Source of the DNA: a virus
Taxonomy: Duplodnaviria; Heunggongvirae; Uroviricota; Caudoviricetes
Virus record (IMG/VR): IMGVR_UViG_2654587568_000021
Strand: one strand, 5' to 3'
DNA length: 17,850 nucleotides
Shown here: positions 1,216 through 13,510 of the stretch, piece by piece
Layout of the letters: every line of letters begins with the position of its first letter
How positions within the stretch are numbered: position 1 is the first letter of the stretch
Translations under genes and position numbers: made by a program
The notes under the pieces: model-generated
Told to the model about the DNA's origin: nothing
Database searches by the model: none
Seen by the model: only the letters and a program-made list of their open reading frames with translations

Positions 1216-1357
1216 CTGTATGAATAGACAGTGTTAAGCAATGGTAGTAGACTTATGTAGACGAACAAAGAATAGGCTATGTCTAGGCTGATCCCCGAAA
1301 ACCCGTACACCCCTACGGGCTGGCATAGCCGTCAGAATTAGGGGCGCGGGGTGGCGT

Positions 1358-3077: not shown

Positions 3078-3911
3078 ATGAACATCGAAAAAAGCAGATT
3101 AATTTCTGAGGCCGCCCCTCATCTGAACGCCTCTCTGGGCACAATTAACGGTAATGAATTTGCCGCAATTGTCCCAGTTATTCCTGGTCATATAGGTGGG
3201 CGTGAAACCAATATTGTTAGCGCAAAAGCGTTACACAAAGCGTTGGGCGTGGGAAAAGACTTCTCTACATGGATCACTGATCGCATCTCTGAATATGACT
3301 TCACCATTGGGCACGATTACTCAGTCCATAAAACAATTTCCCCAAATTTGGGGAAAAGCCCGAATGGCGCGGCTTACAGCAAGATTAAGCAGTCTGGCAG
3401 ACCCGGCAAAGACTATCTGTTAAGTGTCGGAATGGCGAAAGAACTGGCAATGATCGAACGCAATGATCAGGGTCGCGCTATCCGCCGTTATTTCATCCAG
3501 TGCGAGGAAGAATTACAGCGTAGCGCGCCTGAAATCGCCGCCCGCTATCGTCGCCAGCTAAAAGCCCGTATCAGTGCCGCAAACAACTTTAAGCCAATGT
3601 GCGATGCGCTGAATATGGCCCGTGCCGAGATGGGGAAAACGACGCAGCAACACCACTACACAAACGAGAGCAATATGATTTCTCGTATCGTTCTTGGTGG
3701 GATAACTGCTAAGCAGTGGGCGCGGATAAATGGCTATTCTGGCGAACCTCGCGACCATATGAACGCAGAACAGCTTGAGCACCTCTCATATCTCGAAAGC
3801 ACCAATATCACGTTAATTGATATGGGCATGGAATATGAGCAGCGCAAAGGAGAACTCACCCGCCTGTCGCAACGCTGGCTCGCCAAGCGTCTGGAGGCGG
3901 TCAATGTCTAA
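3078..3911 (+). CDS. Phage antirepressor-like protein (AntA/Rha/KilA-C type), 277 aa
   Basis: GGAG RBS. The central segment DYLLSVGMAKELAMIERNDQGRAIRRYFIQCEEEL resembles the conserved core of AntA/KilA-C antirepressor domains as I recall them. Confidence 0.65.
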   Translation: MNIEKSRLISEAAPHLNASLGTINGNEFAAIVPVIPGHIGGRETNIVSAKALHKALGVGKDFSTWITDRISEYDFTIGHDYSVHKTISPNLGKSPNGAAYSKIKQSGRPGKDYLLSVGMAKELAMIERNDQGRAIRRYFIQCEEELQRSAPEIAARYRRQLKARISAANNFKPMCDALNMARAEMGKTTQQHHYTNESNMISRIVLGGITAKQWARINGYSGEPRDHMNAEQLEHLSYLESTNITLIDMGMEYEQRKGELTRLSQRWLAKRLEAVNV

Positions 3912-4086
3912 GCCAACAGGAACACCACAACCTCAAAAACGCTACAAAGATGCCCACGGAGCACTCGTTACTGTCGAAAGCGTGTCTCACAACCGAGTGA
4001 CGTTTTATCGCGACGGGTATCAATCGCCATGCGTACAACCGCTGGCGCGCTTCATGAAGGAGTTCGCGGAGGTTAACAAATGCTAA
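3904..4086 (+). CDS. Small hypothetical protein, 60 aa (MSKPTGTPQPQKRYKDAHGALVTVES...)
   Basis: ATG at 3904 overlaps the stop of the upstream gene (ATGTCTAA). Start chosen inside the longer ORF-track frame 3817..4086. Confidence 0.45.
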   Translation: MSKPTGTPQPQKRYKDAHGALVTVESVSHNRVTFYRDGYQSPCVQPLARFMKEFAEVNKC

Positions 4087-4741
4087 CCGTCCAGAAGAAG
4101 ATATTTTCACTGGCTGGTATGTCACCAAAATCCAGCAATATGACAGCAAAGTCTGGCATTAATACAGCAGATACAAGCAAAGTTTATCATTTTCTGGTGG
4201 TAGGAGCGGATGCCTTAACTATGTCAGAAATTACGGTCGATGGTGTTAGCGTTGAGAAGGTCAGCGGCTGCGCCAGAGAATTTCTGGTCGTAGATGGCTT
4301 TCTCTGCTCGCGTAGTGACTCCACAAAAACCTTCGTCCATACGCGCGACGTTAACGAAATGAGCGCGATGTATTGTGCATCTGGTGCTTCCAATACTGAG
4401 TTTTCGGAGTCCATAAAAAAGAGCTTGCCGTTATGCGGCAACACGGTTTATGGTTATAAGGCACCTCATAAAACGGGTGCCGGGATTGGCGTCCTGAAAA
4501 TTCTGAAGGCGACATATGACGCGCCGAGCGTCTTTTTTTATGTCGTAGGTCTGACTCACCCATTTTTTGGGCGTTGGTGTATAATCCAGCGCCTTTGTCA
4601 ATCAATGGTGGCTCAGGCGGGGGCTTCTTCGGAAGCGCCGGTATCCTTCAGAGCCGGTTACGCCAACCCTGTCTGGGCTACCACCAGCGAAATTGGCGTT
4701 TCCGGTGGTAGCGTAACCTGCTATCTGAAGGAGGCTGCCAC
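4080..4741 (+). CDS. Uncertain ORF: frame stays open from an ATG at 4080 (overlapping the upstream stop) through to 5147, crossing a terminator-like hairpin, a promoter and the Icd-like gene; the part shown here may be a real gene, a fused or frameshifted remnant, or non-coding
   Basis: ATGCTAA start/stop overlap at 4080-4086 suggests coupling. An open frame of about 220 codons before the Icd-like start is unlikely by chance, but the translated composition is not convincing and regulatory signals lie inside it. Confidence 0.25.
4518..4539 (+). terminator. Candidate rho-independent terminator (GACGC-loop-GCGTC followed by T7)
   Basis: 5-bp GC-rich stem at 4518-4522 / 4528-4532, then TTTTTTT at 4533-4539. 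Confidence 0.35.
4550..4590 (+). promoter_or_regulatory. Candidate sigma70 promoter with perfect -10 TATAAT (4580-4585) preceded by TG; weak -35
   Basis: gtgTATAATcc at 4577-4587. Lies about 155 nt upstream of the Icd-like gene. Confidence 0.4.
4590..4735 (+). ncRNA. Candidate C4/IsrK-like antisense RNA leader upstream of the Icd-like gene (position-based hypothesis)
   Basis: In P1-type immunity regions a C4 RNA lies between the promoter and icd. Here a promoter-to-icd leader of about 150 nt occupies the same position. No structure or homology was verified. Confidence 0.25.
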
Positions 4742-4936
4742 ATGCTGGCTACTACCCCTACCCAAAAACCGCAATTTATCTGGATTATCGCCGCAGTTCG
4801 CCGCGATTGCCCGACAATTACCGCCAAAATTCATCATATTGCTGCCGAGTCTGAACGCGATGCTCGCCGTTCTCTGGTGCGCGATCACGTCTGCTTTTTT
4901 GCTGGTCGTATCCGCATGGAGGTGGCACATGATTAA
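4742..4936 (+). CDS. Host cell division inhibitor Icd-like protein, 64 aa
   Basis: Strong RBS AAGGAGG 7 nt upstream. Sequence FIWIIAAVRRD...IHHIAAESERDARRSLVRDHVCFFAGRI fits the Icd-like pattern I recall (FxWxxAAxxR ... SE.xARRxL ... FAxR). Confidence 0.7.
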   Translation: MLATTPTQKPQFIWIIAAVRRDCPTITAKIHHIAAESERDARRSLVRDHVCFFAGRIRMEVAHD

Positions 4937-5147
4937 AACCTACGATGTGCATATGGATCCCCTCGAACGCACAAGCCAGATCATCACACTGACAGAAGTG
5001 ATTAACGACATTCTGGTGAGCAACTCTCCCTCACGAGACGAAAGGCTGAAGGCGTTACTCGCGATATTGGATCTCGCCGTTCGTGACGTTCATTTCCTGC
5101 TGGAAGGTGGACAAATGCCAGGAAAAACGGGGGCAACCAATGAATAA
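4929..5147 (+). CDS. Small hypothetical protein, 72 aa (MIKTYDVHMDPLERTSQIITL...)
   Basis: ATG overlaps the Icd-like stop (ATGATTAA), with GGAGG upstream. This is the C-terminal part of the long open frame 4080..5147. Confidence 0.5.
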   Translation: MIKTYDVHMDPLERTSQIITLTEVINDILVSNSPSRDERLKALLAILDLAVRDVHFLLEGGQMPGKTGATNE

Positions 5148-5334
5148 CTCAATTAATACCCCTCGCCTTACGTCAGCACTTCAATTAATTGAGCAAGTAG
5201 CGGCTGTCCTGGTTGCTGTCAGTCTTTCGGCTGAAGAAATGGACGCTGCTGATGTCGTGGATGCGATTAAAGCGCGCTCATCTTTGGTTAACGATGCCCG
5301 TGCAGAGCTGGTAATTCTTGGGGGTGAAAAATGA
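5140..5334 (+). CDS. Small hypothetical protein, 64 aa (MNNSINTPRLTSALQLIEQ...)
   Basis: ATGAATAA start/stop junction with the upstream gene. In frame with ORF-track entry 5083..5334. Confidence 0.5.
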   Translation: MNNSINTPRLTSALQLIEQVAAVLVAVSLSAEEMDAADVVDAIKARSSLVNDARAELVILGGEK

Positions 5335-5594
5335 ATATCAACTTAATTTATCGTCATCCGTGTGAGCTGGAAATTGAATCATTGCTGGGGAGAGAAGAGC
5401 CATATCCAGACACATTCACTCTCGCAGATTGCGCGACTGAACGGCTTACCAGAGCGCGCACAGGTCTGGTTCATGTGATGAATGAGATTGTTCCCTCGGT
5501 GGGAGGGGAACAGGCGACAGTAATCAATAGCTGGCTACAAAAAGTTACCTCCCTGATAGATATCAGTTTAATCGATGTGGAGAGTGCGAAATGA
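5331..5594 (+). CDS. Small hypothetical protein, 87 aa
   Basis: ATGA start/stop overlap with the upstream gene. Part of the coupled chain. Confidence 0.55.
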   Translation: MNINLIYRHPCELEIESLLGREEPYPDTFTLADCATERLTRARTGLVHVMNEIVPSVGGEQATVINSWLQKVTSLIDISLIDVESAK

Positions 5595-6419: not shown

Positions 6420-9176
6420 ATGCGAAACATTGATCTTATCCGTCAGGTTATCAGTGCGTCTGAAAACAACTGGCCTCATGTGCTGGGCTGCCTGAACATA
6501 AATGTCCCTGACTCTCCGCGCCGTCATGCTCCCTGCCCTGCATGTGGGGGCAAAGATCGATTCCGGTTCGATGACAACGGGCGCGGTAGCTTCATCTGTA
6601 ATCAGTGCGGCGCTGGTGATGGGCTGGATTTAATTAAACGCGTAAATAACTGCGACACAACAGAGGCGGCGCTTCTTGCCGCTGATGTTCTGGGTATTGA
6701 TTACCGGACAACGGAAACACCAGAAGCCACCAGCCAGAAACGGGAACAACTGGAAACCGAGCGCCAGCGACGCGAACAGGAGCGCCTGAAAAGGGCAGAG
6801 AAGGACGAACAACAAAGACGGGATACGTTTTCCCGTCAGTTTGATGACATGCGCAGAAAGGCTGTAAACGGCAAATCTGATTATCTGGTTGCGAAAGGGG
6901 TAGGTGATTTTACATTCCCCGTGTTGCCCGATGGATCTCTGTTGCTGGCGCTGGTGGATAAATCCGGCGCAGTCACAGCAGCACAGACTATTACCTCACA
7001 TGGTGAAAAAAGACTCCTGACAGGTTCAGCAAAGCGAGGGGCATATCACGCCATAAACGCACCAGAAACAACACAGAGCATCTTAATCGCAGAAGGGCTG
7101 GCAACGGCATTATCTGCCCATTTAATTCGTTCAGAAGCGCTGACAGTGGCGGCGATTGATGCCGGGAACCTGTTATATGTCGCCCAGGTACTGCGGGATA
7201 AATTTCCTTCAGCACAAATCATCATTGCTGCGGATAACGACCACAGCGAAGGAAGACAAAACACGGGGAGAATAGCAGCAGAAAAAGCAGCTTTATCTGT
7301 TTCTGGATGGGTGGCATTACCCCCGACAGATCACAAAGCAGACTGGAATGATTACCACCAAAAACACGGCATTAAATGCGCCACAGAAGCGTTCAATAAG
7401 TCAATGTACCAACCACAGGGTAATGGCGTGAAACAGGAGCCACAGACCATTGAGGGAAGCGATTTTAAGGTTATGGATACCGACCCACTGAAACCAAGAA
7501 TAGAAAGCCGCGAGGATGGTATTTATTGGGTATCTCCGAGAGCTGACAGCCAGAGTGGAGAAATCATCAATAACGAAAGCTGGTTATGTTCTCCTTTAAG
7601 CGTTATCGGTACTGGCAGAGACGATAAAGACCAGTATCTCATTCTTCGCTGGCTGTCGTTTGGTTCTGAAACGCCGACAACCGCTGCCATTCCACTGGCT
7701 GATATTGGTGAACGTGAAGGATGGCGCACACTTAAAGCTGGTGGGGTAAATGTCACGACCAAAAGCAGCCTCAGAGCAATACTGGCAGACTGGCTACAAC
7801 GCAGTGGCTCTCGTGAATTGTGGCGTGTTGCTCATGCCACTGGCTGGCAATGCGGAGCGTACATCATGTCTGATGGGGAAATCATCGGAACACCTGAAAA
7901 TCCTGTGCTGTTCAGCGGGAGAAGCTCAGCCGCAGCCGGATATACCGTCTCAGGGAGCGCGAAAAGCTGGCGTGATAACGTGGCGCGTCTGGCCTTTGGT
8001 AACTATTCAATGATGACCGGGATCGGCGCAGCACTGGCAGCGCCATTGATTGGGCTGGTGGGCGCTGACGGGTTCGGTATTCATTTCTATGAGCAGTCGA
8101 GCGCAGGTAAGACCACCACGGCAAACGTGGCGAGCAGCTTATACGGCAACCCTGATTTACTGCGGCTGACGTGGTACGGAACCGCGCTGGGGCTGGCAAA
8201 TGAAGCCGCCGCCCACAATGACGGACTAATGCCGCTTGATGAAGTTGGTCAGGGCGCTGATCCTGTCAGTGTTTCACAGTCTGCCTATGCGTTATTTAAC
8301 GGTGTAGGGAAACTGCAAGGCGCTAAAGATGGTGGAAACCGGGATCTAAAACGCTGGCGTACAGTGGCAATCAGCACCGGAGAAATGGATTTAGAAACAT
8401 TTATCGCTACTTCCGGGCGAAAAACCAAAGCCGGGCAACTGGTGCGACTGCTGAATATTCCGTTGAGTAAAGCAGTACGCTTTCACGATTACCAGAACGG
8501 AAAACAGCACGCAGACGCACTGAAAGACGCTTACCAGCATCACCACGGCGCAGCCGGGCGTGAGTGGATTAAATGGCTGGCAGACCACCAGCAACAGGCT
8601 ATTAAAACTGTTCGTGACTGCGAAAGCAGATGGAGAAGCCTGATCCCATCCGATTATGGTGAGCAGGTTCACCGTGTAGCCGCGCGATTTGCCATTCTGG
8701 AGGCCGCATTGCTGTTAGGCGAGGTTGTAACAGGCTGGGATGCTCAGACATGCCGTGATGCGATACAGCACAGCTATAACGCATGGTTGCGCGAGTTCGG
8801 CACAGGTAACAAAGAGCATCAGCAGATTATTGAACAAACGGAGGCATTTCTTAATGCCTATGGGCTTAGCCGTTTTGCACCATTTCCATACAGCCCGGCA
8901 GATTTGCCCATCAAAGATTTAGCCGGATACCGTCAGCGTGGAGAACATGACGAAAGCCCAATGATTTTCTACACATTCCCGGCCACATTTGAAAAGGAGA
9001 TCGCATGTGGTTTCAACGCAAAACAGTTTGCTGAAGTGTTGAAAAAAGCCGGGATGCTAACCCCACCAAACAGCGGTCGTGGATACCAAAGAAAATCACC
9101 ACGTATTCAGGGACGACAAATAAACGTTTATGTACTCAATTACCAGCCAGGAGATTATAACTCATCCGAAGAATGA
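6420..9176 (+). CDS. P4 alpha-like DNA primase-helicase, 918 aa: N-terminal zinc ribbon, Toprim domain, C-terminal P-loop NTPase
   Basis: CPACGG...CNQCG zinc-binding motif. Toprim signatures IAEG and DNDH. Walker A SSAGKTTT and Walker B-like LMPLDEVGQG. Confidence 0.9.
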   Translation: MRNIDLIRQVISASENNWPHVLGCLNINVPDSPRRHAPCPACGGKDRFRFDDNGRGSFICNQCGAGDGLDLIKRVNNCDTTEAALLAADVLGIDYRTTETPEATSQKREQLETERQRREQERLKRAEKDEQQRRDTFSRQFDDMRRKAVNGKSDYLVAKGVGDFTFPVLPDGSLLLALVDKSGAVTAAQTITSHGEKRLLTGSAKRGAYHAINAPETTQSILIAEGLATALSAHLIRSEALTVAAIDAGNLLYVAQVLRDKFPSAQIIIAADNDHSEGRQNTGRIAAEKAALSVSGWVALPPTDHKADWNDYHQKHGIKCATEAFNKSMYQPQGNGVKQEPQTIEGSDFKVMDTDPLKPRIESREDGIYWVSPRADSQSGEIINNESWLCSPLSVIGTGRDDKDQYLILRWLSFGSETPTTAAIPLADIGEREGWRTLKAGGVNVTTKSSLRAILADWLQRSGSRELWRVAHATGWQCGAYIMSDGEIIGTPENPVLFSGRSSAAAGYTVSGSAKSWRDNVARLAFGNYSMMTGIGAALAAPLIGLVGADGFGIHFYEQSSAGKTTTANVASSLYGNPDLLRLTWYGTALGLANEAAAHNDGLMPLDEVGQGADPVSVSQSAYALFNGVGKLQGAKDGGNRDLKRWRTVAISTGEMDLETFIATSGRKTKAGQLVRLLNIPLSKAVRFHDYQNGKQHADALKDAYQHHHGAAGREWIKWLADHQQQAIKTVRDCESRWRSLIPSDYGEQVHRVAARFAILEAALLLGEVVTGWDAQTCRDAIQHSYNAWLREFGTGNKEHQQIIEQTEAFLNAYGLSRFAPFPYSPADLPIKDLAGYRQRGEHDESPMIFYTFPATFEKEIACGFNAKQFAEVLKKAGMLTPPNSGRGYQRKSPRIQGRQINVYVLNYQPGDYNSSEE

Positions 9177-9760: not shown

Positions 9761-9934
9761 ATGGCTATTTCAGTAAAGCCAGTATTGATAAGTGAGAAGC
9801 AAATGGAAGCGATAAAGAAAATTCAGGAGGAGCAGCGTAAAAAATCAGAGGTAGGAGTTGCGCCAACGATCCACGAAATTGCTCGGGGATTAATGGATAA
9901 GGCGCTGGCTTACACTTTAACTGGACGTGGGTAA
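9761..9934 (+). CDS. Small hypothetical protein, 57 aa, first gene of the cargo operon (below the 60-aa ORF-track cutoff)
   Basis: RBS AGGGGG at 9751-9756, ATG at 9761, TAA at 9932-9934; translated by hand as MAISVKPVLISEKQMEAIKKIQEEQRKKSEVGVAPTIHEIARGLMDKALAYTLTGRG. Confidence 0.5.
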   Translation: MAISVKPVLISEKQMEAIKKIQEEQRKKSEVGVAPTIHEIARGLMDKALAYTLTGRG

Positions 9935-9938
9935 ATCA

Positions 9939-11405
9939 ATGGCTACGTGGCAACAGGGTATTAATTCTGGTGGTTTTCTGGCTGGCATTGGTGCGCAAAA
10001 CGAGAATGCGCCAAAGGCAAGCGACATTAACGCAACGCTTGGTCTGATCCGCGAAAACAATGAACTGGCTCGCTCAGGTGCAAATAACGTTGCTCTGACA
10101 GGTCTTCGTGGTCTGGCTGGCGTTGCTGATATTTATAAGCAGCAGCAACAGCAGGAGCGTAAAGCGGCATTCCAGAAAGGTTATGCAGATGCTTATGCGT
10201 CCGGTGACAGGGAGCAGATGCGTAATCTTATTACAGCATTCCCAGAAGAGTTTGAGGAAGTCCGTAAAGGGATGAGTTATGTCGATGATGCTCAAAGGGA
10301 TGATTATGGCAATCTGGCGCTCAAAGCACAGGTAGCCTCATCGCTTGGTCAGGGCGCATTTGGCAGGTTCATGATGGATAATGAGCAGGAGATGCGTCGT
10401 TTAGGTATCCCTCCAGAAACTATTGCTGAAATGCAGGTTAATGACCCGCAGGGCTTCCAGCATTTCGCAGGTAATCTGGCGCTGTTTTCTCTCGGTCATG
10501 AGAAGTATTTCGATATCAAAGATCAAATGGAAGGTCGGGATATTGAGCGTGGCAAGTTGGCAGAGACAATCCGCAGCAATCAGGCTGGCGAAGCACTTCA
10601 GGCGAGAGGGCAGGATATTAGCCGAGCAAATGCGTTAACGTCAGCATATGCACCAACAGCAGCAATGCAGAATTACAATCAGTACGCGCAAATGTTAAAG
10701 GCGGATCCAGAGGGGGCGGCGGCATTTGCGGCAGCGGCTGGAATTAATACAAACGCCAAAAAATTAATGAGTGTTAGAGAAAACGATGATGGCACTGTCA
10801 CAAAATACTACACAGACGGAAGTGAAGAGCAGGGAAAACTAAACCAGCCAATATCTGGAGATGGGTTTCGTCCAATAGCTTTGCCAACAGCCCAAAAGAT
10901 CATGGAAAAGTCGCCAGAAGGGGCTAAAAAAGCTGCTGGATTTGCATACAGGGTTAGGGATGCTCTTGATTCAATAGATACACTGAAAGACCAGCTTAGC
11001 CCACAGCGAGTGGCGATCATTAATAATGCTTTGGGTAATGGGACGCTGGCTAACTTAACGCTCAGCCCAGCAGAGCAGCAATACGTTGTTAATGCTAATG
11101 ACGCAATAATGGCAATACTCCGTCAGGAAACAGGGGCATCTATCCTACCAGCTGAAATGTCCAAATATTATCAAATGTATTTCCCTCAGCCTGGTGATTC
11201 CACAAAAACCATTGATACCAAGCGCCGGAAGATGGAAAACCAGTTCAATTCGCTGAAAGCTGCTTCTGGTCGAACTTATGATGCTTTGCGGGTTATTTCA
11301 GCAGTTGACAGAGGAACTGCTTCTTCGTCGCAGACATTGCCGCAATCTGAGCAGGTATCACAGCCAGCAGCCAGCAGTAACTTTTCTTCACTATGGGGTG
11401 ATTAA
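9939..11405 (+). CDS. Large hypothetical protein, about 488 aa, Ala/Gln/Gly-rich; no family recognised. An alternative GTG start at 9927 gives the 492-aa ORF-track version
   Basis: Long intact ORF with an ATG 4 nt after the upstream stop. Stop overlaps the next start (TAATG). Confidence 0.8.
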   Translation: MATWQQGINSGGFLAGIGAQNENAPKASDINATLGLIRENNELARSGANNVALTGLRGLAGVADIYKQQQQQERKAAFQKGYADAYASGDREQMRNLITAFPEEFEEVRKGMSYVDDAQRDDYGNLALKAQVASSLGQGAFGRFMMDNEQEMRRLGIPPETIAEMQVNDPQGFQHFAGNLALFSLGHEKYFDIKDQMEGRDIERGKLAETIRSNQAGEALQARGQDISRANALTSAYAPTAAMQNYNQYAQMLKADPEGAAAFAAAAGINTNAKKLMSVRENDDGTVTKYYTDGSEEQGKLNQPISGDGFRPIALPTAQKIMEKSPEGAKKAAGFAYRVRDALDSIDTLKDQLSPQRVAIINNALGNGTLANLTLSPAEQQYVVNANDAIMAILRQETGASILPAEMSKYYQMYFPQPGDSTKTIDTKRRKMENQFNSLKAASGRTYDALRVISAVDRGTASSSQTLPQSEQVSQPAASSNFSSLWGD

Positions 11406-13510
11406 TGGCTAAAGCATGGAAAGATGTTATCGCCTCTCCACAGTATCAGGCGTTAGCACCAGAACAAAAAGCGCAGGCTCAGGAGCAATACTTCAATGAA
11501 GTCGTGGCCCCGCAAGCCGGAGAAAGTGTAGAGCAGGCTAAGCAGGCTTTTTATGCTGCCTATCCACTACCATCAACGAATGAAATAGACCGATCCCAAT
11601 CAGCAACTCAAAATATTCAACATACATCATCTGATAATTCTCTTGCGTCAGGGTATGCAAAGTTAGCTACTCAGCAAAGAGAGGGGCTTGAGCGTTCAGC
11701 AGAACAGGGAGCCAGTCTTGGGGCTGCGATGCGCGATGCTATAACAGGCGAAAGCCGAATGACTCCAGAGATGGAGAGACTGCAAAATGTCGCCTCTGCC
11801 CCAGAATTGAACTCACTAAGCATGGATGCCCTAAAGGCTGGATGGTCTCAACTTTTCGGCTCTGACGCGTCTCAGGAAAAGATTCTTCAGGGAATGGGGG
11901 CGACATTAAGGCAGGATGAGAAGGGGAATACTATCGTTTCTCTGCCATCAGGTGATTATGCCCTGAACAAGCCGGGTTTATCACCGCAAGACCTGACCTC
12001 GTTTCTTGCTAATGCGTTGGCGTTTACACCAGCGGGCAGGGCTGGAACGGTGCTTGGTGCCATAGGAAAATCAGCAGCTACAGATTTAGCACTACAGGGA
12101 GCCACCAGCCTTGCTGGTGGAGAAGATATTGATCCGTTACAAACGGTAATTTCTGCTGGCATTGGTGGTATTGGTAAGGGGCTGGAAAATACAGCGAGTG
12201 CGGTTTCGAGGGCTGTTCGTGGTGATATGTCGCCTGAAGCAAAGGCTGCTGTCGACTTTGCATCGGAAAGAAATCTGCCGTTAATGACCAGTGACATGCT
12301 GAAAGATAAAACCTTTATGCAGAGTCAGGCTCAGACATTAGGCGAAAGAGTTCCTTTTTTTGGAACCGGTAAGAATCGGCTGAATCAACAACAAGCACGA
12401 GAAAATTTAGTCAGAACATTTAGCGATGGTCTGGGTGGCATTTCTGATAAACAGCTTTATGAATCTGCGACTAAAGGGCAACAAAAATTCATTGAGGCAG
12501 CAGGAAAGCGATATAACCGCATAATTGACGCTATGGGGGATACCCCTGTCGATCTCTCAAACACGGTAAAAGCTATCGACAATCAGATTGCCGTGTTAAG
12601 CCGCCCGGGCAAATCTCAGGATAGAGCCGCGGTAAAAGTCTTGCAGCAATTTAAAGACGATATCACCAGCGGACCAAATGACCTGCGTCTGGCGAGGGAA
12701 AACAGAACCGATCTTCGAAAGCGATTTATGGCGTCATCTGACACTGTTGATAAAGATACGCTCCAGAAAGCCAGCGATATTATCTACAAGGCATATACGG
12801 CGGATATGAAAAAAGCCGTAGCCAAAAATCTTGGAGCAGACGAAGCCATTAATATGGCAAGGGTTGATCGCTCATGGTCTAAATTCAATGACATGATGGG
12901 AAGAACGCGCGTTCAAAAGGCAATAGCCAGCGGCAAGGCCACGCCTGAGGATGTAACAAAACTCGTTTTTAGCCAAAGCCCATCAGAACGTTCTCAGCTT
13001 TACAGGCTTCTGGATGACAATGGTAGGCAAAACGCACGAGCAGCCATAGTTCAGAATGCTGTAGATAAGGCGACTGATCCGTCTGGAAATATCAGTGTTG
13101 AGAAGTTTATTAATGCGTTACACCGGAACAGGAAGCAATCAGCAACTTTCTTTAAAGGCGTACATGGAAAGGAACTGGACGGCGTTATTAAATACCTCAA
13201 CGATACAAGACACGCGGCAAAAGCGAACGTTCAAAACTTAAATGGTCAGCAGCTTTATGGATTGTTAGTTGGTGGTGGCATCATAAACGCAGCAGTATTA
13301 GCGGGGATGCTAAAAACGGCTGCGTTTGTTGTTCCTGCTGCTGGTGCCGTAGGCGGAGCAGCGAAGGCATACGAAAGCCCTGTTATACGAAATGCCTTGT
13401 TACGTCTGGCAAATACGCCAAAAGGTAGCACAGCATATGACAGAGCGATCAGTACGGTCACACAATCGCTCACCAGAGTCGCACAGGCATCACAAAAAGA
13501 AGCTCAATAA
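11405..13510 (+). CDS. Large hypothetical protein, 701 aa, with a C-terminal Gly/Ala-rich hydrophobic segment (LYGLLVGGGIINAAVLAGMLKTAAFVVPAAGAVGGAA); function unknown
   Basis: Long intact ORF coupled to the upstream gene and followed by a terminator hairpin. No enzymatic motif recognised. Confidence 0.85.
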   Translation: MAKAWKDVIASPQYQALAPEQKAQAQEQYFNEVVAPQAGESVEQAKQAFYAAYPLPSTNEIDRSQSATQNIQHTSSDNSLASGYAKLATQQREGLERSAEQGASLGAAMRDAITGESRMTPEMERLQNVASAPELNSLSMDALKAGWSQLFGSDASQEKILQGMGATLRQDEKGNTIVSLPSGDYALNKPGLSPQDLTSFLANALAFTPAGRAGTVLGAIGKSAATDLALQGATSLAGGEDIDPLQTVISAGIGGIGKGLENTASAVSRAVRGDMSPEAKAAVDFASERNLPLMTSDMLKDKTFMQSQAQTLGERVPFFGTGKNRLNQQQARENLVRTFSDGLGGISDKQLYESATKGQQKFIEAAGKRYNRIIDAMGDTPVDLSNTVKAIDNQIAVLSRPGKSQDRAAVKVLQQFKDDITSGPNDLRLARENRTDLRKRFMASSDTVDKDTLQKASDIIYKAYTADMKKAVAKNLGADEAINMARVDRSWSKFNDMMGRTRVQKAIASGKATPEDVTKLVFSQSPSERSQLYRLLDDNGRQNARAAIVQNAVDKATDPSGNISVEKFINALHRNRKQSATFFKGVHGKELDGVIKYLNDTRHAAKANVQNLNGQQLYGLLVGGGIINAAVLAGMLKTAAFVVPAAGAVGGAAKAYESPVIRNALLRLANTPKGSTAYDRAISTVTQSLTRVAQASQKEAQ

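What the first reader, a model, noticed from the sequence alone, without database searches (positions are those of the whole stretch)
4080..4936. Icd-like gene with promoter, terminator-like hairpin and possible C4-type RNA, all inside a 355-codon open frame
Frame 3 is open from 4080 to 5147, unlikely by chance, and its ATG overlaps the upstream stop. Inside it are a hairpin plus T7, a perfect -10, a roughly 150-nt leader and a strongly ribosome-bound Icd-like ORF in another frame. Either there is an unusual overlapping-gene arrangement, or an ancestral gene has been fused or frameshifted, or the leader is a C4-like antisense RNA as in P1 c4-icd-ant.
Basis: partly seen in the sequence, partly recalled or inferred. 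Interest (0 to 1): 0.5.

Follow-up and report, generated by a model that had tools for sequence, protein, structure and literature searches.

The report
P4-type RNA immunity switch in satellite
This stretch of an E. coli phage-satellite island is a known kind of RNA-based immunity switch (an IsrK/seqA-like RNA, a C4/CI-like antisense RNA and an Icd/Kil-like gene), all lying inside a long reading frame that evolution keeps open but whose amino acids it does not conserve.

Summary
Frame 3 is open from 4080 to 5147, with 0 stops against 20 and 15 in the other two frames. Rfam finds isrK at 4461-4538 (67.8 bits) and C4 at 4601-4688 (79.9 bits). An Icd-like ORF (NF033153) lies at 4742-4936.

The C4 loop (a') and joint (b') are complementary to sites inside isrK (b1, a1) and to sites over the icd ribosome-binding site (b2, a2). 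These three sets co-vary across 34 sequence clusters.

The long frame is the counterpart of phage P4 eta, the ORF that spans seqA-cI-seqC-kil. In loci sampled by a C4 DNA pattern, 172 of 173 with a strong isrK keep this frame open. Every intact locus keeps the same isrK-to-C4 distance modulo 3. The variable spacer has no stops in this frame in 34 of 34 clusters. Yet the frame shows no codon periodicity and no purifying selection.

Pfam Phage_ASH matches exactly the isrK-C4 stretch. Relative to P4, a 2-nt difference puts icd out of frame, so the frame runs on into the next gene.

Verdict: a new member of a known P4/P1-type immunity module, sitting in an EcCIMP1-like PICI. Interest is modest.

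The parts
4080..5147 (+). eta-like long ORF (355 codons; PGAP calls it 'ash family protein'). It overlaps the stop of the upstream DUF4222 gene and spans the promoter, isrK, C4, icd (in the +1 frame) and the next small gene (in frame).
   Evidence: Counterpart of P4 eta 8812->8168. Kept open in 172/173 relatives.
4425..4454 (+). PLE-like promoter: -35 TTGCCG (4425-4430), 18-nt spacer, -10 TATGGT (4449-4454). The predicted start is near 4461, the 5' end of isrK.
   Evidence: Read from sequence. TTG... and TA...T are conserved in position across 13 clusters. Aligns with TATAGT upstream of the P4 isrK match. Not experimentally mapped.
4461..4538 (+). isrK / P4 seqA-like RNA element. Contains b1 (4485-4492 ATTGGCGT), a1 (4502-4509 TCTGAAGG) and an intrinsic terminator (stem 4518-4532, T7 4533-4539).
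   Evidence: Rfam RF01394, 67.8 bits against gathering 50. Terminator scan. Repeats.
4580..4585 (+). TATAAT between isrK and C4. A possible extra promoter for C4; status uncertain.
   Evidence: Sequence. Conserved only in clusters L001, L131, L145 and L162. Not reported by the promoter scan.
4601..4688 (+). C4 / P4 CI-like antisense RNA. a' loop at 4644-4652 (TCCTTCAGA), b' joint at 4660-4669 (ACGCCAACCC). An in-frame ATG at 4605 corresponds to the start of Gifsy-1 orf45.
   Evidence: Rfam RF01695, 79.9 bits against gathering 45. MFE -46.4 kcal/mol, z = -4.79. Inverted repeats I6, I8, I10.
4692..4734 (+). Downstream target (seqC / a2b2-like): b2 at 4692-4699 (ATTGGCGT), a2 at 4724-4732 (TCTGAAGGA), overlapping the icd Shine-Dalgarno GGAGG at 4730-4734.
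   Evidence: Direct repeats D5 and D6, inverted repeats I3 and I8. Co-varies with a'/b' across clusters.
4742..4936 (+). Icd/Kil-like gene (64 aa), out of frame with the long ORF.
   Evidence: NF033153, E = 3.7e-20. 44% identical to P4 Kil and 25% to the P1-like Icd. pN/pS 0.20-0.30 in its own frame.
4929..5147 (+). Small gene (72 aa, no family hit) with its own GGAGG. Its start overlaps the icd stop (ATGATTAA). It lies in the same frame as the long ORF.
3904..4086 (+). Upstream DUF4222 gene. Its stop overlaps the start of the long ORF. It is part of a chain of overlapping genes running from alpA (2437-2634) to the primase (6420-9176).

Best explanation
The region is the immunity and maintenance switch of a P4-like or PICI satellite integrated at tRNA-Thr next to proA.

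Quiescent state (inferred from P4, P1 and Gifsy-1). A constitutive promoter inside the long ORF (about 4425-4454) starts transcripts at about 4461. Most of them stop at the isrK terminator and give a short IsrK/seqA-like RNA. Read-through transcripts are processed into the C4/CI-like RNA. C4 pairs through its a' loop and b' joint with b2/a2, which covers the icd ribosome-binding site. The expected result is that icd is not translated and transcription stops before the downstream replication genes. C4 also pairs with b1/a1 in the isrK region, which would give autoregulation or a decoy effect.

Induced state (inferred). When the helper activates the upstream alpA operon, ribosomes enter the region in the long eta-like frame. 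That frame starts at 4080, coupled to the DUF4222 gene. Ribosomes would read straight through the terminator, C4, the target sites and icd. This would prevent the RNA structures, C4 pairing and Rho loading, so that the replication genes are expressed.

Role of the long frame. On this view its function is to be translated, not to encode a conserved protein. Shown here: the RNA elements, the complementarities and their co-variation, selection on icd, and selection for an open frame without selection on its amino acids.
For: RNA elements: Rfam isrK and C4 hits above gathering score; C4 fold z = -4.79.

Pairing: a1/a2 and b1/b2 are direct repeats, both complementary to C4. Three-way co-variation across 34 clusters: the self a' match averages 7.4 nt (a1) and 8.3 nt (a2), against 4.8 and 5.0 nt for non-self; at least 15 a' types and at least 4 b' types occur. 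Islands with near-identical backbones carry swapped a and b sets.

icd: NF033153 hit, 44% identity to P4 Kil, pN/pS 0.20-0.30.

Long frame: 172/173 loci found by a frame-blind C4 DNA pattern keep it open from isrK to beyond C4. The isrK-to-C4 distance takes 10 different values in the intact loci, all equal to 2 mod 3. The only deviant, 202 nt, belongs to L082, the one locus whose frame is broken. The variable spacer has stops in 0/34 clusters in this frame, against 18/34 and 14/34 in the other frames. Compensating indels (-1, -38, +1, +2) keep the frame in L202.

No protein-level constraint: no codon periodicity in the spacer (entropy 1.00/1.11/1.09, against 0.88/0.87/1.26 for icd). pN/pS is 1.6-4.1 where the frame overlaps icd.

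Precedents: P4 eta (214 aa) spans isrK and C4 and ends with kil. PMC10111431 summarises that eta translation prevents immunity termination and that the Rfam C4 and isrK models detect CI and seqA relatives. In Gifsy-1, orf45, which overlaps the C4-like STnc1160, is translated, is needed for translation of the downstream gene, and has conserved nucleotides but variable amino acids (PMC4825925).
Against: There is no transcript or translation data for this island, and the promoter is only a consensus-level match. The isrK fold alone is not significant (z = -1.09). Clusters are phylogenetically related, so the stated probabilities overstate independence. In this window the long frame is out of frame with icd, unlike P4, so the P4 mechanism is transferred by analogy. 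The icd+1 frame is open in 16 of the 24 in-frame clusters detected, so its openness here is only weak evidence of selection. The N-terminal 110 codons show only weak constraint (pN/pS 0.33-0.53 from 16-17 differences). A protein function for the N-terminal part is therefore neither shown nor excluded.
Confidence: 0.78

Rival explanations
1. 'Ash' is a genuine protein domain (for example a Bro-network DNA-binding or regulatory domain) whose sequence is conserved for protein function. On this view the RNA model hits are secondary.
For: Pfam PF10554 hits at E = 4.7e-34. Hundreds of database proteins are annotated as ash family. The domain is found fused to Rha, AntA and Bro-N type N-terminal parts. 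The frame is under selection to stay open.
Against: The Pfam match (aa 124-232, i.e. nt 4449-4775) coincides with isrK plus C4 plus the a2 site. The same holds in P4 (aa 37-161 of eta) and in SfV. Variability shows no third-position excess in this frame. The most variable 'residues' are exactly the a and b sites, and they change as base-pairing triplets. In P1-like phage JL22 the same RNAs occur without a continuous ORF. From my own knowledge of the P4 literature (Deho, Ghisotti and colleagues), P4 genetics assign immunity to the RNA.
Confidence: 0.07
2. The long open frame is a meaningless by-product. On this view the G+C-rich structured RNAs simply lack stop codons, and gene callers join neighbouring real genes.
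For: C4 is 62% G+C. PGAP annotates the same DNA in two ways: as one 355-aa protein, or as a pseudogene plus icd plus a small ORF. There is no amino-acid-level constraint.
Against: The fast-evolving spacer has no stop in this frame in 34/34 clusters, while the other frames have stops in 18 and 14 clusters; the product of shuffle probabilities is 7e-15. All indel classes in intact loci preserve the frame. The one 1-nt shift found (L082, distance 202) is the one broken frame. Compensating indels occur in L202. The start codon has a strong SD and overlaps the upstream stop. Translation of the equivalent frame has been shown in Gifsy-1 (PMC4825925), and eta translation is reported for P4 (PMC10111431).
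Confidence: 0.08
3. A P1-type c4-icd-ant module acting only by translational repression. On this view C4 is made from the TATAAT promoter at 4580 and blocks icd translation, and with it a coupled downstream antirepressor. The long frame has no role.
For: Rfam C4 hit. Icd family hit. a2 covers the icd SD. TATAAT is present and conserved in four clusters. The icd stop overlaps the next start.
Against: The gene after icd is a 72-aa ORF with no Ant domain, and the AntA gene lies upstream. The downstream operon leads to a primase, as in P4. Icd is closer to P4 Kil (44%) than to the P1-like Icd (25%). In a P1-like phage the upstream ORF stops before C4, whereas here and in all isrK-bearing P4-type loci it continues. 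TATAAT lacks a -35 and is absent from most clusters.
Confidence: 0.07

Closest known systems
Satellite phage P4 immunity region (PLE - seqA - cI RNA - seqC - kil nested in eta, followed by epsilon ... alpha primase)
   Same: Same order of elements. Rfam isrK and C4 hit both loci. The Kil/Icd homologue lies immediately after C4, with its SD inside the downstream target. A long ORF starts upstream of the internal promoter and spans everything. The operon ends in a primase. Pfam Phage_ASH maps to the same RNA stretch.
   Different: In P4, kil is nested in frame in eta and the two share a stop. Here a 2-nt difference puts icd in another frame, and the long ORF continues through icd into the next gene, giving 355 rather than 214 codons. 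The N-terminal part is 123 codons long and is coupled to a DUF4222 gene rather than to the alpA/vis homologue. The spacer is 62 nt rather than 107 nt. The a and b specificities differ. The host element is an EcCIMP1-like PICI with a DUF927 primase.
Phage P1/P7 c4-icd-ant immunity (ImmI)
   Same: C4 RNA with a'/b' sites, upstream a1b1 and downstream a2b2 targets, and an Icd-family ORF whose SD is covered.
   Different: No ant gene follows icd. Icd is only 25% identical. In the P1-like phage JL22 the frame through isrK stops before C4, whereas here it is continuous.
Salmonella Gifsy-1 isrK-orf45-anrP locus (PMC4825925)
   Same: An IsrK-type RNA with a leaky terminator. It is followed by a C4-like stable RNA (STnc1160) that overlaps a translated frame (orf45) coupled to the downstream gene. 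Nucleotides are conserved and amino acids are not. The window has the equivalent in-frame ATG at 4605.
   Different: In Gifsy-1 the downstream gene is an antirepressor (AnrP) and the described frame starts inside C4. Here the frame starts 380 nt upstream of isrK and the regulated gene is Icd/Kil-like. No activating role of the short IsrK RNA has been tested here.
Pfam PF10554 Phage_ASH / NCBI 'ash family protein'
   Same: The ORF scores 117.5 bits. Near-identical 355-aa proteins form large database clusters (1393, 484 and 306 member sequences).
   Different: The 'domain' is the translation of isrK plus C4 plus the a2 site, and it shows no protein-level selection. It is not P4 epsilon, which is PF25738, although PF10554 has been used as the epsilon marker (PMC8628076).

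Membership tests
Rfam RF01695 C4 antisense RNA | Covariance-model score at or above the gathering threshold over the full model | tested here: met
   79.9 bits against 45, model positions 1-87 of 87, window 4601-4688
Rfam RF01695 C4 antisense RNA | Long closing stem enclosing two hairpins, stable fold | tested here: met
   MFE -46.4 kcal/mol, z = -4.79, 0 of 200 shuffles as stable
Rfam RF01695 C4 antisense RNA | Loop and joint (a', b') complementary to targets upstream and downstream, the downstream one covering the regulated RBS | tested here: met
   I8, I10, I6, I3. Co-variation across clusters.
Rfam RF01695 C4 antisense RNA | Mature RNA produced by RNase P processing of a longer transcript | not testable with these tools
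   Needs RNA mapping. The ACCACCA 3' motif is present (alignment).
Rfam RF01394 isrK / P4 seqA | Covariance-model score at or above gathering, with a 3' intrinsic terminator | tested here: met
   67.8 bits against 50. Terminator 4518-4532 plus T7.
Rfam RF01394 isrK / P4 seqA | Hfq binding; short and read-through isoforms | not testable with these tools
   Known for Gifsy-1 only (PMC4825925)
P4-type immunity region (seqA-cI-seqC, kil within eta) | Constitutive promoter immediately upstream of seqA/isrK, inside the long ORF | tested here: inconclusive
   TTGCCG-18-TATGGT at 4425-4454, positionally conserved, but below the promoter scan threshold and unmapped
P4-type immunity region (seqA-cI-seqC, kil within eta) | Kil/Icd homologue is the first gene after the CI RNA, with its RBS in seqC | tested here: met
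P4-type immunity region (seqA-cI-seqC, kil within eta) | Long ORF (eta) that starts upstream of the internal promoter, is coupled to the preceding gene, and spans seqA, cI and seqC | tested here: met
   4080-5147, ATG overlaps the upstream stop. Conserved open in 172/173 loci.
P4-type immunity region (seqA-cI-seqC, kil within eta) | kil nested in the same frame as eta, sharing its stop | tested here: not met
   icd is in the Ash+2 frame. The long ORF reads through icd in its +1 frame and ends at 5147. This arrangement occurs in 7 of 30 clusters.
P4-type immunity region (seqA-cI-seqC, kil within eta) | Rho-dependent terminator (timm) suppressed by translation; replication genes downstream | not testable with these tools
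   The primase operon downstream is present. Termination needs experiment.
P1/P7 c4-icd-ant | Antirepressor gene translationally coupled downstream of icd | tested here: not met
   The downstream 72-aa ORF has no Pfam hit. AntA lies upstream at 3078-3911.
NCBIfam NF033153 Icd-like | HMM score above the curated cut-off | tested here: met
   71.7 bits against 25
NCBIfam NF033153 Icd-like | Inhibits host cell division or kills on overexpression | not testable with these tools
   Functional assay needed
Pfam PF10554 Phage_ASH (as a protein domain) | HMM score above gathering | tested here: met
   117.5 bits against 26, aa 124-232
Pfam PF10554 Phage_ASH (as a protein domain) | Conservation due to selection on the amino-acid sequence | tested here: not met
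   No codon periodicity. pN/pS above 1 where testable. Variation follows RNA pairing.

The most novel reading that the evidence does not exclude
The 'Ash domain' may not be a protein domain at all. It would be the translated shadow of the isrK-C4 immunity RNAs, and the long ORF would be maintained only as a track for ribosomes. Frame would then be irrelevant, as long as it stays open. That would explain why the ORF can slide out of frame with icd, read through icd in +1 and fuse to whatever gene follows. If so, PF10554, used as the epsilon marker for P4-like satellites and described as a domain of unknown function in Stx and other phages, actually marks an RNA immunity switch. These loci would then be a clean natural example of an ORF selected for translation itself rather than for its product.
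Probability: 0.55. Interest if true: 0.45.

Novelty: new member of a known kind. Interest (0 to 1): 0.3.

Why it matters
It assigns a mechanism-level annotation to a gene that is conserved in a common family of E. coli satellites (EcCIMP1-like PICIs) and is currently labelled only 'ash family protein'. That gene houses the island's RNA immunity switch.

It documents many exchangeable immunity specificities. The a and b sites co-vary in three places, and they are swapped between otherwise identical islands.

It also shows that a Pfam family used to detect P4-like satellites is driven by RNA conservation. This affects how 'Ash', 'epsilon' and 'Rha/Ash' annotations should be read.

The kind of system itself (P4 seqA-cI-seqC-kil/eta, P1 c4-icd, Gifsy-1 IsrK) is already well described.

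Tried and rejected

2. Primary P4 papers (PMC94026, PMC176756) are not held. P4 statements therefore rest on the summary in PMC10111431 and on my own knowledge.

3. A regex search for icd-like ORFs missed several clusters. It was replaced by an HMM search.

4. BLASTP similarity of ORF residues 61-119 to SfV orf37 is weak and not decisive for a conserved N-terminal domain.

5. pN/pS for the N-terminal part rests on only 16-17 differences, so it is inconclusive.

6. The TATAAT at 4580 was considered as the main C4 promoter. I rejected it as the general explanation because it lacks a -35 and is absent from most clusters. It is not excluded for this subgroup.

7. I did not run a structure prediction of the 355-aa product, because the alignment signal is RNA-driven.
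Full report
OBSERVATION

Frame 3 is open from ATG 4080 to the stop at 5147, 355 codons in all. The ATG overlaps the stop of the upstream DUF4222 gene (ATGCTAA), and a GGAGG lies 7 nt upstream. The frame has 0 stops, against 20 and 15 in the other two frames. The central 160 codons (4449-4928) are not covered by an obvious flanking gene, and they are stop-free in only 0.17% of shuffles.

- a hairpin plus T7 at 4518-4539;
- TATAAT at 4580-4585;
- an ORF with a strong SD at 4742-4936 in another frame, which hits the NCBIfam Icd-like model (E = 3.7e-20).

WHAT THE RNA ELEMENTS ARE

Rfam at gathering thresholds gives isrK at 4461-4538 (67.8 bits) and C4 antisense RNA at 4601-4688 (79.9 bits). The hairpin plus T7 is the isrK terminator. 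C4 folds to -46.4 kcal/mol with z = -4.79.

Two short direct repeats flank C4:
- ATTGGCGT, at 4485-4492 inside isrK and again at 4692-4699;
- TCTGAAGG, at 4502-4509 inside isrK and again at 4724-4731.

Each pair is complementary to C4. The C4 joint at 4660-4669 pairs with ATTGGCGT, and the C4 loop at 4644-4652 pairs with TCTGAAGG(A). The downstream TCTGAAGGA overlaps the icd Shine-Dalgarno. This is the a1b1 / a'b' / a2b2 design of P1 c4 and the seqA / seqB / seqC design of P4.

COMPARATIVE SAMPLE

I collected loci with a DNA pattern taken from the C4 stems, with the loop left free. The pattern is therefore blind to reading frames. This gave 199 loci in 52 clusters at 90% identity.

In the 34 clusters with a strong isrK, the loop, the isrK site and the SD site change together. 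At least 15 a' types occur. Self matches average 7.4 nt (a1) and 8.3 nt (a2), against 4.8 and 5.0 nt for non-self. At least 4 b' types occur.

Four islands recovered through the protein (L201-L204) share an almost identical backbone with the window. L201, L202 and L204 carry different a and b sets at all three places, whereas L203 has the same core as the window. This shows exchangeable immunity specificities.

THE LONG FRAME

Pfam Phage_ASH (PF10554) hits residues 124-232 of the ORF, i.e. nt 4449-4775. That is exactly isrK plus C4 plus the a2 site.

The same holds in phage P4. There Rfam places isrK at 8692-8615 and C4 at 8507-8420. A 214-codon ORF (8812->8168) spans both and ends with the 65-aa Kil sequence. 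PF10554 hits residues 37-161 of that ORF, while epsilon hits a different family, PF25738.

PMC10111431 identifies this ORF as eta. [quoted passage not shown] The window's Icd-like protein is 44% identical to P4 Kil.

IS THE FRAME SELECTED?

Yes, for being open:
- Of 173 loci with a strong isrK, 172 keep the frame open from the isrK start to beyond C4. The exception, L082, has a 1-nt shift and an isrK-to-C4 distance of 202 nt.
- In the intact loci the distance from the isrK start to the C4 anchor takes ten values (116, 119, 143, 146, 158, 164, 194, 197, 200, 203). All equal 2 mod 3.
- The fast-evolving spacer has stops in 0/34 clusters in this frame, against 18/34 and 14/34 in the other two. 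The product of shuffle probabilities is 7e-15, though the clusters are related, so this overstates independence.
- In L202, indels of -1, -38, +1 and +2 sum to a multiple of 3.

No, for its amino acids:
- Variability shows no third-position excess in isrK, the spacer or C4 (spacer entropy 1.00/1.11/1.09). The icd control shows one (0.88/0.87/1.26).
- Where the frame overlaps icd, pN/pS is 1.6-4.1 in the long frame and 0.20-0.30 in the icd frame.
- The N-terminal 110 codons show weak constraint (pN/pS 0.33-0.53, few differences).

Independent experimental precedent comes from Gifsy-1. There the frame that starts at an AUG inside the C4-like RNA (orf45) is translated and is needed for translation of the downstream gene. 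Its nucleotides are conserved while its amino acids vary (PMC4825925). The window has the equivalent in-frame ATG at 4605.

WHAT IS PARTICULAR TO THE WINDOW

P4 and SfV read ...GCC ATC ATG GCT..., so the regulated gene is nested in frame. The window reads ...GCC ACA TGC TGG CT..., two bases longer. As a result icd is out of frame. The long frame passes through icd in its +1 frame and joins the frame of the next small gene (4929-5147), whose start overlaps the icd stop.

Among 30 clusters with an icd-like gene, 23 are in frame, 7 are of the window type, and none uses the third phase. That third phase usually contains 2-6 stops. All 7 window-type clusters read past the icd stop.

Because the icd+1 frame is also open in 16 of the 24 in-frame clusters detected, this is only suggestive of selection for uninterrupted translation.

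In P1-like phage JL22 the same RNAs are present, but the upstream ORF stops before C4. The continuous frame is therefore a P4-type trait, not a necessary consequence of the RNAs.

PROMOTERS

A -35 TTGCCG (4425-4430) and a -10 TATGGT (4449-4454), 18 nt apart, sit just upstream of the isrK 5' end. They are conserved in position across clusters and align with TATAGT in P4. The match is consensus-level only, and the scan did not report it. It may be an extra C4 promoter in this subgroup.

CONTEXT

The island sits at tRNA-Thr next to proA. It encodes:
- an integrase;
- an int-alpA RNA;
- a DUF6387 protein, AlpA, AntA and DUF4222;
- the long ORF, icd and several small overlapping ORFs;
- a Zn-ribbon/Toprim/DUF927 primase;
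- a P22-type injectosome translocase.

This resembles the EcCIMP1 family of PICIs. The paper on that family notes a conserved 'Ash family protein' but does not mention antisense RNA or Icd (PMC11773190). Matches to 3900-5400 occur in 1362 of 5426 complete E. coli genomes, and 479 genomes cover at least 80% of the query. The 355-aa form heads protein clusters with 1393, 484 and 306 member sequences.

MECHANISM

Shown here: the elements, the pairings and their co-variation, selection on icd, and selection for an open but otherwise unconstrained frame.

Inferred from P4, P1 and Gifsy-1:
- In the quiescent island, the internal promoter makes the short IsrK-like RNA and, by read-through and processing, C4.
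- C4 masks the icd RBS and causes premature termination ahead of the replication genes.
- After helper-induced alpA transcription, ribosomes translating the long frame from 4080 run through the terminator, C4 and the target sites. This overrides immunity.

VERDICT

The open frame is also real and is the eta counterpart. The whole is a new member, with a frame-shifted variant arrangement, of a known immunity system. The most useful by-product is that the Pfam 'Ash' family is an RNA-driven signal and is not P4 epsilon.

Noticed in passing
window 1276-1343 (+): Rfam int-alpA RNA (RF02996, 46.7 bits against gathering 35.8), between the integrase gene and the DUF6387 gene.
   Followed up: no
window 9927-13510 (+): The satellite carries a P22-type injectosome DNA/protein translocase (PF16928, E = 1.3e-83), followed by a 701-aa protein with no Pfam hit. 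This suggests a P22-like/Kapi1-like helper, as for EcCIMP1.
   Followed up: partly
P4 locus L003 8168-8812 (-) and 7888-8175 (-): Pfam PF10554 'Ash' hits the eta ORF over isrK and C4, not epsilon (which is PF25738). Yet PF10554 has been used as the epsilon/Ash marker for detecting P4-like satellites (PMC8628076), and it is described as a domain of unknown function in Stx phages (PMC8951638).
   Followed up: yes
L201-L204 (3001-4068 etc.) compared with window 4080-5147: These islands have near-identical flanks. In L201, L202 and L204 the isrK-C4 core is replaced, with all a and b sites changed in concert; L203 keeps the window's core. This is recombinational swapping of immunity specificity.
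   Followed up: partly
window 4425-4441: The palindrome TTGCCGTTATGCGGCAA overlaps the -35 of the PLE-like promoter. On the minus strand it scores as a terminator-like site. It is conserved only among close relatives.
   Followed up: no
L005, L012, L096 (anchor +120 to +1234): In these clusters the long frame runs through icd and on into a protein of about 370 aa whose C-terminus looks like a tyrosine recombinase (…GHSNPAITRTYLQ…).
   Followed up: no
L082 (Apirhabdus apintestini): This is the only isrK-bearing locus with a broken long frame. It has a 1-nt shift (isrK-to-C4 distance 202) and may be a decaying element.
   Followed up: no
L205 1939-2145 (P1-like phage JL22): A 68-codon ORF coupled to the pacB stop reads through isrK and its terminator but stops before C4. 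Translation through the isrK terminator may therefore also matter in P1-like phages.
   Followed up: no
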